A stretch of DNA of 64,000 bases. It comes from Candidatus Kapaibacterium sp. (lineage in GTDB: Bacteria > Bacteroidota > Ignavibacteria > Kapaibacteriales > JAEUSM01). The translations under genes were made by a program, and so were the position numbers. The DNA lies in assembly GCA_016788785.1 (NCBI GenBank), contig JAEUSM010000013.1, forward strand, positions 56,771-120,770, given 5' to 3'. Under the pieces are notes generated by a model. The model did not search any database and was not told the origin of the DNA. It was given only the letters and a program-made list of their open reading frames with translations. Positions 5,170 to 53,300 of the stretch are shown one piece after another (the first letter of the stretch is position 1; each line of letters starts with the position of its first letter).

Positions 5170-5295
5170 CAATTTCCTCCAAAGGAGGGGAATTTGACCG
5201 ATAAACTGTAGAAACAAGGCATGCCCTGTCCCTACAAAAACACGATAACACCCTCGCCCCTATGGGGAGAGGGATGGGGAGAGGGGTCATTTACA
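5170..5295. repeat. GC-rich mosaic hairpin array 1, comprising a short CCTCC-AAA-GGAGG hairpin, a degenerate 30-bp palindrome and the 'CCCTCGCCCC-N-GGGGAGAGGG-TGGGGAGAGGGG' module
   Basis: The span 5251-5290 'ccctcgcccctatggggagagggatggggagaggggtcat' recurs at 13863, 16005 (reverse complement), 32938, 34806 and 53013 (reverse complement). The span 5206-5240 is a degenerate copy of the perfect palindrome at 34973. Local GC is far above the flanking AT-rich DNA. Confidence 0.8.
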
Positions 5296-13655: not shown

Positions 13656-13749
13656 TGAATACCACTCACTTACTAAACACTGTTTAGTGTATGAACGTAC
13701 ATTATTTTTGATTATTGTTGTAAGGTGAATTTTTTTTTAAAATTTAGAT

Positions 13750-13905
13750 TCCACCCTTGTGTAGCGGAGTCATCATCGCAAACCGTAGAGACGCAAAATT
13801 TTGCGTCTCTACAAAAAGTACATCCAATACTCTTCCAAAGGAGGAAATCAAAAAAAAACATCTCCCTCGCCCCTTTGGGGAGAGGGTCGGGGAGAGGGGT
13901 TTCTC
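13750..13905. repeat. GC-rich mosaic hairpin array 3
   Basis: The span 13785-13811 is the perfect palindrome 'tagagacgcaaaattttgcgtctcta' (module C). The span 13830-13850 reads 'ctcttccaaaggaggaaatc', and 13863-13900 is module A ('ccctcgcccctttggggagagggtcggggagaggggt'). The array lies between the TetR gene start and the 3' end of adenylate cyclase gene 2. Confidence 0.8.
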
Positions 13906-15929: not shown

Positions 15930-16245
15930 TCGTACGAATATACGAAAATAAGGGCATTCAGCCACTATCTAAAGATAGTGGAAATTCAAAACATTAGAAC
16001 ATGTACCCCCTCTCCCCGTACCCTCTCCCCAAAGGGGCGAGGGAGTTATCGTGTTTTTTGTAGTGACGCACAATTTGCATCTCTGAAGAAACCACCCCGA
16101 CCTTCGGTCACCCTTCCAAAGGAGGGGAATAGACCAACAACCCACAATTTCCAACATAGGGCTTACACTCTATGCAGTGATAGTACGCCCCTTCAGGGCT
16201 TGACCTCTCTGATTTTTGAGACGCCCATATAGGGCGTCTCTACGA
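15930..16245. repeat. GC-rich mosaic hairpin array 4, in the divergent intergenic region between adenylate cyclase 2 and nnr
   Basis: Module B 'gccactatctaaagatagtgg' is at 15961-15981 and module A (reverse complement) at 16005-16045. A degenerate module C is at 16058-16090, followed by 'ccttccaaaggaggggaa' and module G 'gccccttcagggcttgacc' at 16194-16214. The module C palindrome 'gagacgcccatatagggcgtctc' sits at 16217-16241. The first ~130 bp are collinear with array 7 (52950-53100). Confidence 0.8.
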
Positions 16246-16302
16246 TTGCATTGTTATGATTGAATATATGGAATAAATAATACCCATATTCTTTGTGCGT
16301 TT

Positions 16303-32678: not shown

Positions 32679-32737
32679 TATTGCTTAATTAACACTGTTA
32701 CTTTTCCAAATTTTTATCATTTTCAAGCAATTTTTAT

Positions 32738-32768
32738 GGGGCGAAAGAAATTTCGCCCCTTTTTTTTG
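32738..32768 (+). terminator. intrinsic terminator (module F hairpin GGGGCGAAA-GAAA-TTTCGCCCC followed by a T8 run)
   Basis: The sequence 'ggggcgaaagaaatttcgcccctttttttt' lies 60 nt after the flotillin stop. The identical element recurs at 34690. Confidence 0.8.
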
Positions 32769-33024
32769 TGTTCGGTCTTTCACGATGGGTTAAAACCCAT
32801 CGCTACAAAAGGAAGCCCCTTCAGGGCTTGACCGGAAAACAGTAAAGACAGTGTCAGAAGATAAGTTCCCCGCTTGAGGGGTGCCACCGGTCACTGAGCG
32901 TAGTCGAAGTGTGGCGGGGTGGAATCTGAAGAAAATCTTCCTCTCCCCTTTGAGGGAGAGGGATGGGGTTAGGGGGTATTCGGAATAAAACGGGCAACCG
33001 TAAATGTTGCCCGTACTTTTTTTG
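32738..33024. repeat. GC-rich mosaic hairpin array 5
   Basis: Terminator module F is followed by the hairpin 'gatgggttaaaacccatc' (32783-32800) and module G 'gccccttcagggcttgacc' (32813-32834). Module E 'ccccgcttgagggg' is at 32869-32882 and module D (reverse complement) at 32882-32925. Module A 'cctctcccctttgagggagagggatggggttaggggg' is at 32938-32975, and the terminator-like 'acgggcaaccgtaaatgttgcccgt' plus a T7 run is at 32990-33024. Confidence 0.8.
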
Positions 33025-33116: not shown

Positions 33117-34661
33117 GTGGTCCATCAAAATAAGGAGAAAATCATGAAATACTTCTTTCTTTTATTATGTGCAACATCGTTATCCATTGCACAAGGAATA
33201 AATCAAAAACCTCCGTTTCTATGGGAAAACATATACACCGAAGGAATAATGAGAAGAGGAACTTTTAGGTTCTTTCATCCATTTGACCAACAATCTGTTT
33301 TAGTTATTAGTGAGCAATTAACTGATACTTCTTTTTCGCTTAGATTTTTTCAAAAGTATAATATACTTTCTGGCGAAATTGAGTGGACAAAACCCGGAGA
33401 AGTTGAAGGAAAGCCATTAGACATTCCAATCGCCCCAACTTTTTATTATCAACCGACAAAAGTTGACAATAAAATTTTGATTTCCTCATTAGCTAAACCT
33501 GCAGGTGATCTTGGCTCTACTTTTAGCTTTAGAAGGCAATTTTCTATTGATTCCGATGGAAACACTAAGTTTGAGAGGCTTTATGAAAACAACAGAGAGA
33601 TATTTAAGTCAAAACATCTTAAAGTTGTTGACCAGAATGAGTATATTTATCTTTCGGAGCTTATAAGTTCTGAACAAAATTTTTCAGATAGTACTCTTTT
33701 TAATTACGAGAAAGATGGTATAATTTCTTCTTACCCATTGAAACGCTTTTCTATGATGCATAGTTCACAATGGAATTTGTCAAATGCATGGAAAAGAGCT
33801 GATGGAAAAATTGATTTTATATTAGCGTCTTACAATGAAGATACTAATTGTATTTCATTTAGAACTCTTGATGTAGAAAAGGAAACAATATCAGATGTTA
33901 GTATTATGGGAGAAGAACTTGGTTTAACACCTGATGCATTTCTGACAGTGAGAGATTCTAAGAAAATTGACCACTATTATTATGTTGTTGTTGATGTAGG
34001 TTACTATTACGCTCCTGATAATATACTTTTAAAATTAGACCAAAATGGTAATGTGCTCAAACAAACTGGTTTTAGTGGTTACTCATCTACATGGGGTATG
34101 GAAAAAGGTCCAAATAACTCTATCATCTTGTATGGAGGTACATTTATACCAAATGAAAATCCTAACACCAAAACTAACCAATGGATTGCTCAATTTGATA
34201 CCGAATTGAATAAAATGAATGAGTTTATTTGGGGTACAAACGAAGTTGACATTACAACAGTTGCTACTTATTTTGACGGTGTAGGGTTACTTACCGGTGG
34301 TTTTTATAATAAAAACGATAAAAATTATACATGTACACCTCAAATTGGTCTCATCCCTGAATCTGTGTTTTTGGATGTGTCTTCTGTTGCTGAAAAAAAA
34401 TCAGAAACACTTACAATGCAAATTGTAGAAGATGCTTCTGCAAATTCCTCTTTAGTAGTGAATTCTAAACATCAGCAAACAGTTACTATTAATTTACTTG
34501 ATGCTAATGGAAGATTGGTATCTGTTGTTTCAACAGGAATTCTTTCAGAAGGTGAAAACCGATTTACCTTACCAACATCACTCTCGAATGGAATGTATCT
34601 GGTGAGTTGTGAGCAAAATGGTACTATACTTAGCTCTGAAAAATTCATTATCAAAAAATAG
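33117..34661 (+). CDS. secreted protein with T9SS C-terminal sorting domain, unknown function
   Basis: It has a signal peptide ('MKYFFLLLCATSLSIAQG'). The C-terminal ~90 aa ('...VVNSKHQQTVTINLLDANGRLVSVVSTGILSEGENRFTLPTSLSNGMYLVSCEQNGTILSSEKFIIKK') resemble the Por secretion tail. An ATG at 33144 is an alternative start. Confidence 0.6.
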   Translation: MVHQNKEKIMKYFFLLLCATSLSIAQGINQKPPFLWENIYTEGIMRRGTFRFFHPFDQQSVLVISEQLTDTSFSLRFFQKYNILSGEIEWTKPGEVEGKPLDIPIAPTFYYQPTKVDNKILISSLAKPAGDLGSTFSFRRQFSIDSDGNTKFERLYENNREIFKSKHLKVVDQNEYIYLSELISSEQNFSDSTLFNYEKDGIISSYPLKRFSMMHSSQWNLSNAWKRADGKIDFILASYNEDTNCISFRTLDVEKETISDVSIMGEELGLTPDAFLTVRDSKKIDHYYYVVVDVGYYYAPDNILLKLDQNGNVLKQTGFSGYSSTWGMEKGPNNSIILYGGTFIPNENPNTKTNQWIAQFDTELNKMNEFIWGTNEVDITTVATYFDGVGLLTGGFYNKNDKNYTCTPQIGLIPESVFLDVSSVAEKKSETLTMQIVEDASANSSLVVNSKHQQTVTINLLDANGRLVSVVSTGILSEGENRFTLPTSLSNGMYLVSCEQNGTILSSEKFIIKK

Positions 34662-34689
34662 TTTTTTTTCTAATCAGTGTCATATCTTA

Positions 34690-34720
34690 GGGGCGAAAGA
34701 AATTTCGCCCCTTTTTTTTA
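34690..34720 (+). terminator. intrinsic terminator (second copy of module F)
   Basis: The sequence 'ggggcgaaagaaatttcgcccctttttttt' begins 29 nt after the stop of 33117..34661. Confidence 0.8.
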
Positions 34721-35005
34721 TATTACCCCTCACCCCAGCCCTCTCCCTCAAAGGGAGAGGGAGTTTACTAATAACATTCTCTAATATTTCAAAATATAGG
34801 TTGTTCCCTCGCCCCATTGGGGAGAGGGTTAGGGAGAGGGGGTTTTTCTTCATAAATGGGCGTAAGCAATACGCCCCTACAATACCAATAAACGATAAGT
34901 TCCCCTCTTGAGGGGTGTCACCGGTCACTGATCGTAGTCGAAGTGTGGCGGGGTGGAATCGTCATCGAAACGTGTAGAGACAGGGCATGCCCTGTCTCTA
35001 CAAAA
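34690..35005. repeat. GC-rich mosaic hairpin array 6
   Basis: Module F is followed by module A-prime (34726-34765) and module A (34806-34845). The hairpin 'gggcgtaagcaatacgccc' is at 34858-34877, module E 'cccctcttgagggg' at 34902-34915 and module D (reverse complement) at 34914-34958. A perfect 30-bp palindrome 'tgtagagacagggcatgccctgtctctaca' occupies 34973-35002. Confidence 0.8.
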
Positions 35006-35030
35006 CCAAACGAAAGTTAGTAGGCTTTTT

Positions 35031-35393
35031 TTATGATTTGGAAAGCATTTGTAATTCAATTTGTTGTGCTTTTTTCAATTTAGAAATGACTAAATTGTAC
35101 GAGTTATCAATAATTTCTCGTAAGAATGCATCAGAAAGACATTCCTCCAATGGTATAGTAGCCCAATGTTGTTTATTCATATGATAACCCGGTTTTACGC
35201 ATGGAAATTCACTTTGTAATTCGGCATTACGTTCTGGTTCTATTTTCACATTCATCGAAACGGCATCCGGAACATCAACAAGTAAAAACATTTTTCCCAT
35301 TACTTTGAAAACGAGTGTATCCTCTCCAAAAGGGAATTCTGCTACAACCCCATTTTTTTGACTGCAGATTGCCTCAAGTTCTTGAAACGTCAT
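35031..35393 (-). CDS. MmcQ/YjbR-family DNA-binding protein
   Basis: The 120-aa N-terminus 'MTFQELEAICSQKNGVVAEFPFGEDTLVFKVMGKMFLLV' matches the YjbR/MmcQ family pattern. Confidence 0.7.
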   Translation of the reverse strand: MTFQELEAICSQKNGVVAEFPFGEDTLVFKVMGKMFLLVDVPDAVSMNVKIEPERNAELQSEFPCVKPGYHMNKQHWATIPLEECLSDAFLREIIDNSYNLVISKLKKAQQIELQMLSKS

Positions 35394-52974: not shown

Positions 52975-53300
52975 TATCTAAAGATAGTGGCACTTCGTAT
53001 ATGGAAATTTGTCCCCCCTCTCCCCGTACCCTCTCCCCAAAGGGGCGAGGGAGTTGTTTTGTTCTTGTAGAGACGCACGGACGTGCGTCTCTGAAGATTC
53101 CACCCCGCCATTTAATGGCACCCCTCAAGAGGGGAACCCAAAGATATCTCCCTCTCCCCTTGAGGGAGAGGGTTGGGGTGAGGGGTCATTCTGAATCAAT
53201 GGGCAGACTCGTAGGTCTGCCCCTATAAAATTTCAAAAAAGTTCGACCTCGCCACATTACGACTACGCTCAGTGACCATGGCAGTCCTTAAGAGGGGAAC
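52950..53300. repeat. GC-rich mosaic hairpin array 7
   Basis: Module B 'gccactatctaaagatagtggc' is at 52970-52991 and module A (reverse complement) at 53013-53053. Module C 'gagacgcacggacgtgcgtctc' is at 53070-53091 and the hairpin 'gccatttaatggc' at 53107-53119. Module E 'cccctcaagagggg' is at 53122-53135 and module A-prime (reverse complement) at 53146-53190. The hairpin 'gggcagactcgtaggtctgccc' is at 53200-53222, module D at 53246-53283 and module E 'ccttaagagggg' at 53286-53297. Confidence 0.8.

What the first reader, a model, noticed from the sequence alone, without database searches (positions are those of the whole stretch)
34973..35002. Perfect 30-bp palindrome with a degenerate second copy
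The sequence TGTAGAGACAGGGCATGCCCTGTCTCTACA at 34973-35002 is a perfect palindrome centred on GCATGC. A decayed copy (ctgtagaaacaaggcatgccctgtccctacaaaa) lies at 5206-5240, upstream of the AraC gene. The shorter module C palindromes (AGAGACGC...GCGTCTCT at 13786, 16217 and 53070) share its outer arms (TAGAGAC...GTCTCTA). Palindromes this long and perfect are usually protein-binding sites (for a dimeric regulator or restriction-like enzyme) or cruciform-forming recombination sites, rather than simple terminators.
Basis: seen in the sequence. Interest (0 to 1): 0.5.

Follow-up and report, generated by a model that had tools for sequence, protein, structure and literature searches.

The report
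Mobile REP hairpin, not a regulator site
The 30-bp perfect palindrome is a copy of a tiny, widely spread selfish DNA hairpin (a 'double-foot' REP element, linked to a known class of tyrosine transposases called RAYTs), so it is a real feature of an already described kind and not a gene-control site.

Summary
TGTAGAGACAGGGCATGCCCTGTCTCTACA is at 34973-35002, with a 3-mismatch copy at 5207-5236; none is expected by chance. The regulator-site reading does not hold.

The 28-bp core GTAGAGAC-N12-GTCTCTAC is a 'double-foot' REP: a 5' GTAG foot, a G+C-rich hairpin and a 3' CTAC foot. Exact copies of the core, or its AAGG..CCTT sister, occur in at least 125 places in 98 genomes from about 10 phyla. 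Their flanks are unrelated and they are mostly intergenic.

In 13 of the 120 sampled genome loci the 28-mer lies in frame inside a Y1/HUH transposase-like gene (RAYT/TnpA_REP), between the HuH and Tyr motifs. It is read as VET[R/G]HALSL or RD[K/R]AC[L/P]VST. Eighty of the 120 closest homologues carry such a peptide. This matches TnpA_REP subclass 2.4 described by Quentin et al. 2018.

At the orthologous site a 98%-related strain lacks 35 bp that include the palindrome. Relatives at 94% and 83% have only a 57-bp terminator spacer there.

It is not an intrinsic terminator. No RAYT gene lies in the 64-kb window, so trans-mobilisation in this genome is inferred.

Verdict: new member of a known kind, low to moderate interest.

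The parts
34973..35002 (.). Perfect 30-bp palindrome. The core 34974-35001 is a 28-bp double-foot REP, GTAG-AGAC-AGGGCATGCCCT-GTCT-CTAC, plus T at -1 and A at +1. It lies in the convergent spacer between the 514-aa gene (33117-34661, +) and the YjbR-family gene (35031-35393, -), 29 bp from the YjbR stop.
   Evidence: The identical 28-mer is found in other genomes. 35 bp that include it are absent from the orthologous site in L249.
5207..5236 (.). Decayed copy of the same REP, with 3 mismatches. Its left arm is the AAGG type and its right arm the CCCT type, and its hairpin is weak.
   Evidence: It is not present at the same place in the 95% (L250) and 89% (L252) relatives.
13785..13812 (.). Sister double-foot REP, GTAGAGAC-GCAAAATTTTGC-GTCTCTAC, a perfect 28-bp palindrome. 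It lies between tandem minus-strand genes.
   Evidence: The identical 28-mer is in IMG/VR contigs L055 and L090. It is also present in Logan contigs from three samples.
16219..16243 (-). Single-foot REP of the same outer-arm type: GTAG-AGACGCCC-TATAT-GGGCGTCT(C).
53067..53092 (+). Single-foot REP: GTAG-AGACGCACG-GA-CGTGCGTCT-CT.
34858..34880 (-). 'Canonical long' REP: a GTAG foot, then a stem that opens with G-C pairs (GTAG-GGGCGTA-TTGCT-TACGCCC). It is in the same spacer, 93 bp from the palindrome.
   Evidence: The type is described in PMC6006769.
32783..32806 (-). GTAG-footed hairpin: GTAG-CGATGGGTT-TT-AACCCATCG.
   Evidence: It is conserved in L249.
34662..35030 (.). The host spacer: a mosaic of G+C-rich modules in a 35% G+C genome. 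It holds the terminator 34689-34712, two CCCTC..GAGGG modules, a canonical REP, a 62-nt module with a nested 23-nt loop insert, and the palindrome.
   Evidence: The orthologous spacer in L245 and L246 is about 57 bp with one bidirectional terminator.

Best explanation
The palindrome is one copy of a 28-bp 'double-foot' REP (repetitive extragenic palindrome): a 5' GTAG foot, a G+C-rich hairpin and a 3' CTAC foot. It belongs to the GTAG-tagged REP superfamily, and specifically to the type associated with TnpA_REP/RAYT subclass 2.4 (RAYT group 4).

Shown here:
- It is a discrete 28-30 bp unit with unrelated flanks.
- It is dispersed, mostly between genes, in many genomes.
- Presence or absence differs between near-identical strains at this very site.
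- Every genome sampled more than once carries a single inner variant.
- The unit is embedded in frame in the HuH-Tyr linker of subclass-2.4-like Y1 transposase genes.

Inferred from the E. coli, S. maltophilia and Marinomonas enzymes: when the DNA is single-stranded, for example at a replication fork, the element folds into a hairpin. A monomeric HUH/Y1 enzyme encoded elsewhere in the genome binds the stem and the GTAG foot. It cleaves at a nearby dinucleotide chosen through the foot and rejoins strands, which copies or moves the unit.

Because the sequence is a perfect palindrome with a foot at both ends, either strand presents the same substrate. Any effect on neighbouring genes, such as a 3'-end hairpin on the YjbR transcript, would be secondary.
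For: Anatomy: GTAG foot, 10-13 bp stem and CTAC foot. The window has 8 strand hits of GT[AG]G-footed G+C-rich hairpins against 1.2 expected, all in intergenic module mosaics.

Family:
- GTAGAGAC-N6-16-GTCTCTAC gave 134 matches in IMG/VR loci. Of these, 92 have exactly 12 inner bases, mostly perfect palindromes, and the same inner variants recur in unrelated contigs.

Placement: of 93 non-edge copies, 56 are clearly intergenic and 16 touch ORF ends. Most of the 21 'inside' cases are the RAYT gene itself or N-terminal over-extensions.

Within-genome homogeneity: 43 of 43 within-genome pairs carry the same variant (permutation p < 2e-4).

Transposase link:
- Clustering of the ORFs near the 28-mer puts a Y1 transposase-like protein first. 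It is found in 13 of 120 loci by tblastn.
- Pfam Y1_Tnp scores 27.8 against a cutoff of 23. NCBIfam REP_Tyr_transpos gives E = 2.6e-17. The only PDB hit is E. coli TnpA_REP, 4ER8.
- The REP lies inside the ORF between FVVMPNHIHG and SSIIGSYKSAVTKH, read in two different frames.
- Eighty of the 120 closest homologues found with a linker-less query carry the REP-encoded peptide.
- More distant representatives carry peptides of other inner variants, such as VETLHATSL/RDVACNVST and VETQYFASL.

Literature: PMC6006769 describes exactly this for subclass 2.4. The motifs are NH[IFV]H, WQ and YIxNNP. The REPs are double-foot, and REPs are inserted in tnpAREP between HuH and Y without breaking the frame. 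The taxa are Cyanobacteria, Bacteroidetes and various other phyla.

Mobility at this locus: L249 (98% aa identity in the neighbouring gene) lacks 35 bp that include the palindrome. L245 (94%) and L246 (83%) have only a 57-bp terminator spacer.
Against: - No RAYT gene is present in the 64-kb window (tblastn), and the rest of the genome could not be searched. A cognate enzyme in this organism is therefore assumed.
- Only two copies of this inner variant are visible, so the copy number in the genome is unknown.
- The boundaries of the indel against L249 are ambiguous, because imperfect direct repeats (ATCGAAAC and CTACAAAAC) flank it. Insertion and deletion cannot be told apart from these two sequences alone.
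- In the papers read here, in-vitro activity is reported only for the E. coli, S. maltophilia and Marinomonas enzymes. I found no biochemical test of a subclass 2.4 enzyme.
- The NCBIfam score (63 bits) is below that model's curated cutoff of 80.
Confidence: 0.8

Rival explanations
1. It is a very small mobile or self-propagating palindrome that spreads without a RAYT. Candidate routes are replication template switching or gene conversion at hairpins, or some unknown enzyme, in the manner proposed for cyanobacterial small dispersed repeats. The copy inside RAYT genes would then be just another permissive landing site.
For: - Half-copies and tandem half-REP arrays lie next to full copies (L140, L144, L149, L200).
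- Flanks extend the palindrome by at least 4 bp in 11 of 123 cases, against 1.1 expected.
- Nested 23-nt loop inserts occur in other modules of the same spacer.
- No RAYT gene is in the window.
- No target-site duplication was found.
Against: - The 28-mer is found inside or next to a Y1 transposase gene in 13 of 120 randomly sampled loci, and in most homologues of that gene. This is far more than a neutral landing site would give.
- The GTAG foot is the motif that characterised TnpA_REP enzymes recognise.
- Different inner variants track different RAYT sub-lineages.
Confidence: 0.1
2. Its main role here is a host function on RNA. The hairpin would act as a 3'-end stabiliser or a weak terminator for the YjbR-family transcript, or for the convergent 514-aa gene.
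For: - It lies 29 bp past the YjbR stop in a convergent spacer.
- It forms a strong hairpin.
- The canonical bidirectional terminator seen in L245 and L246 (AAAAGCCTAC..GTAGGCTTTTTTT) has lost its left arm in the window.
- The literature attributes mRNA stabilisation and termination to REPs.
Against: - No T-run follows the stem on either strand, and the terminator scan reports only 34689-34712.
- The 98% relative manages without it at this site.
- The same 28-mer also occurs in divergent spacers and inside ORFs elsewhere.
Confidence: 0.07
3. It is an operator for a dimeric transcription factor or a site for a restriction-like enzyme, and it defines a regulon.
For: The dyad symmetry is perfect. 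One decayed copy lies upstream of an AraC-family gene.
Against: - The neighbouring genes are unrelated across 98 genomes.
- Few copies are in divergent, promoter-bearing spacers.
- The sequence is absent at the orthologous sites of close relatives.
- The AraC-proximal copy is decayed and lies outside the conserved promoter block.
- Exact sequence identity across phyla is unlike co-evolving operator and regulator pairs.
Confidence: 0.02
4. It is an assembly or adapter artefact.
For: Short-read contigs break at or next to these palindromes. One locus, L153, looks like a fold-back contig end.
Against: The same sequence at the same place is in independent Logan assemblies of two runs. It is also in isolate genomes (Spirosoma, Flavobacterium, Hanamia, Massilibacteroides), and it is read in frame in conserved genes.
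Confidence: 0.01

Closest known systems
'Double-foot' long REPs of TnpA_REP subclass 2.4 (= RAYT group 4 of Bertels et al. 2017), described by Quentin, Siguier, Chandler and Fichant, BMC Genomics 2018 (PMC6006769)
   Same: - A 5' GT[AG]G foot and a 3' C[TC]AC foot around a long G+C-rich stem.
- Found in Bacteroidetes, Cyanobacteria and scattered other phyla.
- Copies are inserted in frame inside the tnpAREP gene between the HuH and Tyr motifs, next to short tandem repeats.
- The associated protein has the NH[IFV]H, WQ and YIxNNP motifs.
   Different: The window copy is in a Kapabacteria/Chlorobi-like genome, named only by the homologues of neighbouring genes. No tnpAREP gene is visible in the 64 kb. 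The exact identity of the 28-mer across about 10 phyla and the one-variant-per-genome pattern are my observations and are not taken from that paper.
GTAG-tagged REP superfamily (Di Nocera et al., BMC Genomics 2013, PMC3733652) and E. coli REP/BIME with TnpA_REP (Messing et al. 2012, PMC3479197; Corneloup et al. 2021, PMC8266576)
   Same: - A GTAG tetranucleotide at the foot of a small palindrome.
- Mostly downstream of ORFs, between unidirectional or convergent genes.
- Some copies lie inside genes.
- Several modules combine into mosaics, like BIMEs.
- The enzymes studied bind the folded single strand and need the GTAG foot.
   Different: - In the classical families the GTAG is unpaired and at one end only. 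Here it is paired with a CTAC at the other end, which gives a loop-free perfect palindrome.
- Di Nocera et al. did not list GTAG REPs for Bacteroidetes or Chlorobi.
- Copy number per variant looks low.
REPINs (REP doublets forming hairpins; Bertels and Rainey 2011, PMC3116915)
   Same: They are non-autonomous, RAYT-dependent, hairpin-forming replicative units. [quoted passage not shown]
   Different: There is no spacer between two REPs. The whole unit is 28 bp, far shorter than a REPIN.
Small dispersed repeats (SDR) of Nostoc punctiforme (Elhai et al., Genome Res 2008). Recalled from memory; the paper is not held in the library.
   Same: They are 21-27-nt hairpin repeats. They are reported as mobile, as nested in other repeats and as lying next to tandem heptamers. 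The nested 23-nt loop insert and the tandem-repeat flanks seen here resemble that description.
   Different: I could not compare sequences, so membership is untested.
Subterminal hairpins of IS200/IS605 and their miniature derivatives
   Same: They are single-strand hairpins recognised by a Y1 HUH enzyme, with a 5' tetranucleotide guide and no target-site duplication.
   Different: Here there is no transposase gene between two ends, and the unit is a single hairpin.

Membership tests
REP, GTAG-tagged, double-foot type (TnpA_REP subclass 2.4) | A 5' GT[AG]G tetranucleotide directly at the foot of a G+C-rich stem-loop | tested here: met
   The core is GTAG followed by a stem. The 30-mer folds with a 13-bp stem at -13.1 kcal/mol, z = -6.3.
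REP, GTAG-tagged, double-foot type (TnpA_REP subclass 2.4) | The reverse-complement foot C[TC]AC at the 3' end ('double foot') | tested here: met
   The unit ends ..GTCTCTAC at 34994-35001. The definition is in PMC6006769.
REP, GTAG-tagged, double-foot type (TnpA_REP subclass 2.4) | Repeated and dispersed, predominantly extragenic | tested here: inconclusive
   Across other genomes the feature is met: 125 copies in 98 genomes, up to 5 sampled per genome, mostly intergenic. In the source genome only 64 kb is visible. That stretch holds 2 copies of this variant and 5 related GTAG hairpins, against 1.2 strand hits expected. The genome-wide copy number is unknown.
REP, GTAG-tagged, double-foot type (TnpA_REP subclass 2.4) | A cognate tnpAREP (RAYT) gene flanked by, or containing, the same REP | tested here: inconclusive
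   In other genomes the feature is met: 13 of 120 loci have the 28-mer inside a Y1_Tnp/REP_Tyr_transpos-like ORF, and 80 of 120 homologues encode it. In the source organism there is no such gene in the window, and the rest of the genome was not available.
REP, GTAG-tagged, double-foot type (TnpA_REP subclass 2.4) | Subclass 2.4 protein signature: NH[IFV]H, WQ and YIxNNP, with a variable insertion between beta3 (HuH) and alphaC | tested here: met
   The alignment of 9 REP-bearing ORFs shows PNH[IV]HG, an invariant WQ, and YI..NP with N-P invariant (the YIxNNP position). The linker between them is 25-115 aa and hypervariable. The signature is given in Table 1 of PMC6006769.
REP, GTAG-tagged, double-foot type (TnpA_REP subclass 2.4) | Cleavage and strand transfer of the single-stranded REP by the enzyme | not testable with these tools
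   This is a biochemical assay. In the papers read, it is published only for the E. coli, S. maltophilia and Marinomonas enzymes.
Mobile element (any) | Presence or absence at orthologous sites of close relatives | tested here: met
   The window has 35 bp, including the palindrome, that L249 (98% aa) lacks. L245 and L246 lack all modules. The direction of the event, insertion or deletion, is not resolved.
Intrinsic (Rho-independent) terminator | A G+C-rich hairpin followed by a T-run on the transcribed strand | tested here: not met
   The stem is followed by AAAACC on the + strand and ACGTTTCG on the - strand. The scan reports only 34689-34712.
Transcription-factor operator / regulon motif | A conserved position relative to promoters of functionally related genes, conserved at orthologous loci | tested here: not met
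   The neighbours are unrelated and few copies are in divergent spacers. The sequence is absent at orthologous loci.
MITE | 70-300 bp, with terminal inverted repeats and a target-site duplication | tested here: not met
   The unit is 28-30 bp. Direct repeats at the flanks are barely above the control (2 bp in 14 cases against 7 expected; 3 bp or longer in 4 cases against 3.7 expected).
Known RNA family (Rfam) | A match at the gathering score | tested here: not met
   There are 0 matches in the whole window.
Small dispersed repeats (Elhai 2008) | Sequence identity to SDR1-8 consensus sequences | not testable with these tools
   The paper is not held in the library.

The most novel reading that the evidence does not exclude
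The in-frame copy inside the RAYT gene is not an accidental, tolerated insertion. It is the element's master copy or cis-acting site, comparable to a rolling-circle origin that lies inside its own rep gene.

A single gene of about 600 bp would then carry both the enzyme and its substrate, and could seed a new REP family after transfer to a new host. That would explain three things seen here:
- One 28-mer is identical in about 10 phyla.
- Each genome holds a single inner variant.
- The nucleotide sequence is kept while it is translated in two different frames.

The copies seen in phage-like contigs would be a possible vehicle for the transfer.
Probability: 0.2. Interest if true: 0.6.

Novelty: new member of a known kind. 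Interest (0 to 1): 0.3.

Why it matters
For annotating this window, it removes a false regulatory lead. The palindrome and its 'module C' relatives are selfish or domesticated repeat units. The G+C-rich intergenic mosaics they sit in are fast-turnover regions that differ even between 95-98% related strains, and that break short-read assemblies.

More broadly, one exact 28-mer is shared by 98 species-level genomes from about 10 phyla. Each genome sampled more than once holds one variant. This offers a simple handle for tracing horizontal spread of RAYT subclass 2.4, and for asking whether the copy embedded in the gene is functional. Both questions can be addressed with existing genome data and a simple in-vitro assay.

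Tried and rejected
- Rfam at gathering thresholds over the whole window gave nothing.
- A full-text search for the sequence strings found only unrelated primer matches.
- The Elhai 2008 SDR paper could not be read.
- My first look-up of the aminotransferase used its TTG start, which is not on record. The ATG start worked.
- I suspected that a transposase lay between the paired REPs 1857 bp apart in IMG/VR contigs. The gene there is a phage capsid gene.
- Target-site duplication: no clear signal.
- Flank symmetry, that is insertion at the dyad of existing palindromes: real in only about 9% of copies.
- RAYT in the window: none by tblastn.
- No genome-scan locus comes from the window's own genome.
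- BLAST of the 30-mer against cultured phages and plasmids found nothing. The AAGG sister variant, searched in plasmids only, hits one Spirosoma plasmid.
- Independent contigs carrying the TetR-family gene next to the 13785 REP all contain the REP and end 2 nt beyond it, so they say nothing about polymorphism.
- I considered a Nextera/Tn5 mosaic-end artefact because of the shared AGAGACAG. I rejected it because other inner variants lack that string and because isolate genomes and coding sequences carry the element.
- I considered a 28-bp Xer/dif-like site or an integron attC. I rejected both on copy number, lack of cassettes and the RAYT link.

Full report
**Observation.** The window reads TGTAGAGACAGGGCATGCCCTGTCTCTACA at 34973-35002, a perfect 30-bp palindrome. 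The only other match with up to 3 mismatches is at 5207-5236, and shuffled sequence gives none. As single-stranded DNA the 30-mer forms a 13-bp stem at -13.1 kcal/mol (z = -6.3). The decayed copy barely folds, at -3.5 kcal/mol. 13785-13812 is a second perfect 28-mer, GTAGAGACGCAAAATTTTGCGTCTCTAC. 16219-16243 and 53067-53092 share the arms but keep the outermost GTAG/CTAC on one side only.

**Setting.** The window has 35% G+C. By the named homologues of its lysine 6-transaminase it comes from a Kapabacteria/Chlorobi-like bacterium. The same sequence is in two Logan metagenome assemblies.

The palindrome lies in the 369-bp convergent spacer between a 514-aa gene (33117-34661, +) and a YjbR-family gene (35031-35393, -). 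The spacer is a mosaic of G+C-rich modules:
- a canonical terminator at 34689-34712, the only terminator-like site found;
- two CCCTC..GAGGG modules;
- a GTAG-footed hairpin at 34858-34880;
- a 62-nt module at 34899-34960;
- the palindrome.

Similar mosaics occur at about 5170-5290, 13740-13900, 16020-16250, 32730-33015 and 53000-53300. Neither strand has a T-run after the palindrome, so it is not an intrinsic terminator. Rfam finds nothing in the window.

**The family elsewhere.** The pattern GTAGAGAC-N6-16-GTCTCTAC gave 134 matches in the IMG/VR loci returned. Of these, 92 had exactly 12 inner bases. A chance pattern would spread evenly over the eleven allowed gap lengths. Most inner 12-mers are themselves palindromic, and the same ones recur in unrelated contigs: GCGATTAATCGC, GCAAAATTTTGC, GTTGCATGCAAC, AAGGCATGCCTT and the window's AGGGCATGCCCT.

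That gave 125 copies in 98 genomes. By record title these are Bacteroidota (most), Ignavibacteriota, Desulfobacterota, alpha-, beta- and gamma-Proteobacteria, Campylobacterota, Deinococcota, Cyanobacteria, Gemmatimonadota, Aquificota and WOR-3. The flanks are unrelated, so the unit is the 28-mer. The -1 base is T in 46% of copies and the +1 base is A in 44%, which yields the 30-bp form seen here.

Of 93 copies not at a locus edge:
- 56 are clearly intergenic: 16 convergent, 34 tandem and 6 divergent.
- 16 touch ORF ends.
- 21 are 'inside' mechanically called ORFs.

Every one of the 16 genomes sampled more than once carries a single inner variant (43 of 43 concordant pairs, permutation p < 2e-4). 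No target-site duplication stands out. In 11 of 123 copies the flanks extend the palindrome by at least 4 bp, against 1.1 expected.

**The link to a transposase.** I clustered all ORFs within 3 kb of the 28-mer across the genome loci. The largest cross-locus cluster is a 190-275-aa protein, present in 13 loci by tblastn. It matches Pfam Y1_Tnp above threshold (27.8 against 23 bits) and NCBIfam 'REP-associated tyrosine transposase' (E = 2.6e-17, below that model's cutoff and split into two stretches). Its only PDB relative is E. coli TnpA_REP, 4ER8.

These are most of the 'inside ORF' cases. The palindrome lies inside the gene, in a hypervariable, low-complexity linker between the HuH strand (FVVMPNHIHG) and the catalytic-tyrosine helix (SSIIGSYKSAVTKH). 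The frame is not broken. The 28-mer is read as VETRHALSL or VETGHALSL in one frame and as RDKACLVST or RDRACPVST in another. What is conserved is therefore the DNA and not the peptide.

A query with the linker removed found 5876 homologues at E <= 1e-20. Eighty of the best 120 carry such a peptide, and many others carry degraded versions. Among 50%-identity representatives (26,262 at E <= 1e-3), more distant members encode other inner variants. Examples are VETLHATSL/RDVACNVST (GTTGCATGCAAC) and VETQYFASL or VEAQNLASL (the GCAATATTTTGC and GCAAAATCTTGC group, to which the window's 13785 copy belongs).

**What the literature says.** This matches a described system. Quentin et al. 2018 (PMC6006769) define TnpA_REP subclass 2.4, which equals RAYT group 4. 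Its motifs are NH[IFV]H, WQ and YIxNNP. [quoted passage not shown] Its REPs are either 'canonical long', with a GT[AG]G foot and a stem starting with three G-C pairs, or 'double foot', with a 5' GT[AG]G and a 3' C[TC]AC. It has the 'unique feature' that REPs are inserted within the tnpAREP gene between HuH and Y without disrupting the frame, next to short repeats.

The window holds both REP types. The palindrome and 13785-13812 are double-foot. 34858-34880 (GTAG-GGGCGTA..TACGCCC) is canonical long. Di Nocera et al. 2013 describe the wider GTAG-tagged superfamily, its preference for positions downstream of ORFs, and occasional intragenic copies.

The mechanism comes from other subclasses. E. 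coli TnpA_REP is a monomeric HUH/Y1 enzyme that binds the folded single-stranded REP and its GTAG (abstract of PMC3479197). Corneloup et al. report that the GTAG foot helps select the nearby CT or CA cleavage site (PMC8266576). For subclass 2.4 I infer this mechanism; it has not been shown.

**Evidence of turnover at this locus.**
- In relatives whose transaminase is 94% and 83% identical (L245, L246), the Band_7 and YjbR genes converge on a 57-bp spacer. It holds one bidirectional terminator and no modules.
- A 98% relative (L249) has a 495-bp module mosaic. At the orthologous place it reads GGAATCttctatGAAACCAATCGAAAGTTA. The window reads GGAATCgtcatcGAAAC[GTGTAGAGACAGGGCATGCCCTGTCTCTACAAAAC]CAAACGAAAGTTA, a 35-bp difference that contains the palindrome.
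- Imperfect direct repeats at the edges make the exact boundary and the direction (insertion or deletion) ambiguous.
- In the same alignment the window has a 23-nt segment in the loop of a module hairpin that L249 lacks.
- The decayed copy at 5207-5236 lies beyond the promoter-like block (ttgacaa..ttgctaatttt) that is conserved upstream of the AraC-family gene in relatives. It is not present at that place in the 95% and 89% relatives. A 78% relative has other GTAG REPs there.

**Conclusion.** The palindrome is a double-foot REP of the RAYT subclass 2.4 type: a small non-autonomous mobile or formerly mobile hairpin, not an operator. The main gap is that no RAYT gene lies in the 64 kb and the rest of the genome could not be searched. 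The element is a new member of a known kind.

My observations go beyond what I could read in the literature. They are the exact identity of one 28-mer across about 10 phyla, the one-variant-per-genome pattern, and conservation of the nucleotide sequence through two reading frames. They leave open a more interesting reading: that the gene-embedded copy is a functional master copy or cis site. I give that reading about 0.2.

Noticed in passing
window 34922-34944 and 32888-32910; short forms at window 53096-53137 (-) and L249 3857-3897: A 23-nt segment, CGGTCACTGA[T/G]CGTAGTCGAAGT, sits in the loop of the GCCAC..GTGGC hairpin of a 42-nt module (GTTCCCCTCTTGAGGGGTGCCAC-loop-GTGGCGGGGTGGAATC). Copies with and without it coexist, also between 98%-related strains. 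It looks like a nested very small insertion.
   Followed up: partly
window 5251-5273, 13864-13886, 16021-16043, 34806-34828, 53029-53051; also 32940-32961, 34740-34760, 53151-53171: A second repeated module family, CCCTC[G/T]CCCC-N3-GGGG[A/C]GAGGG, is often followed by T/A-GGGGAGAGGGG. It travels in the same intergenic mosaics as the REPs. It has no GTAG foot and its nature is undetermined.
   Followed up: no
window 32738-32759 and 34690-34711, bracketing 33117-34661: The terminator hairpin GGGGCGAAAGAAATTTCGCCCC is duplicated on both sides of a 514-aa gene. That gene's C-terminus resembles a Por/T9SS secretion tail, which I did not test. The gene is absent from the 98%-related contig L249, where the two mosaics are contiguous. 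This suggests gene gain or loss by recombination between repeat modules.
   Followed up: partly
L012 559-586 and 2416-2443 (same arrangement in L013, L022, L057, L077): Phage-like IMG/VR contigs carry two double-foot REPs (inner GCAATAGCTTGC and GCAATATTTTGC) 1857 bp apart. They bracket what looks, by inspection of the translation, like the major capsid gene of a portal-protease-capsid module. REPs therefore also live in phage genomes, which could carry them between hosts.
   Followed up: partly
L196 2209-3621; also L131, L162, L166, L224, L154, L160: The REP is read in frame inside a non-transposase ORF that looks amidohydrolase-like by eye (..SAFVETGHALSLQPTQ..). In at least six loci the TAG of the GTAG foot serves as the stop codon of the mechanically called neighbouring ORF.
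   Followed up: no
P0256, P0258, P0271, P0280, P0286, P0304, P0334, P0346 (linker regions): Some RAYT linkers encode VETRQCLVST or VETRHCLVST. These are the frame-1 left arm joined to the frame-3 right arm, as expected from 29-nt REP variants with one extra central base.
   Followed up: no
L144 about 235-307, L200 6635-6700, L140 5762-5806, L149 3364-3409: Half-REPs (one arm plus a few bases) are repeated in tandem next to full copies. Many copies abut short tandem repeats (L125, L126, L133, L170, L173, L189, L228, L229, L244). This suggests slippage or template switching at the hairpin.
   Followed up: no
L256/L257/L258 position 1 (= window 13814); L003 start (= window 34812); L004 start (= window 34956): Short-read contigs from independent samples end within or 2 nt beyond these repeat modules. 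The mosaics are systematic assembly break points.
   Followed up: partly
L254 2020-2400: A 78%-related strain has a 520-bp mosaic upstream of the AraC-family gene with different GTAG REPs (GTAGGGACAGGTCGCGACCTGTCC, GTAGGGGCAGACCTATGTGTCTGCCC). The 89% relative has none. Module content at one locus turns over completely between relatives.
   Followed up: partly
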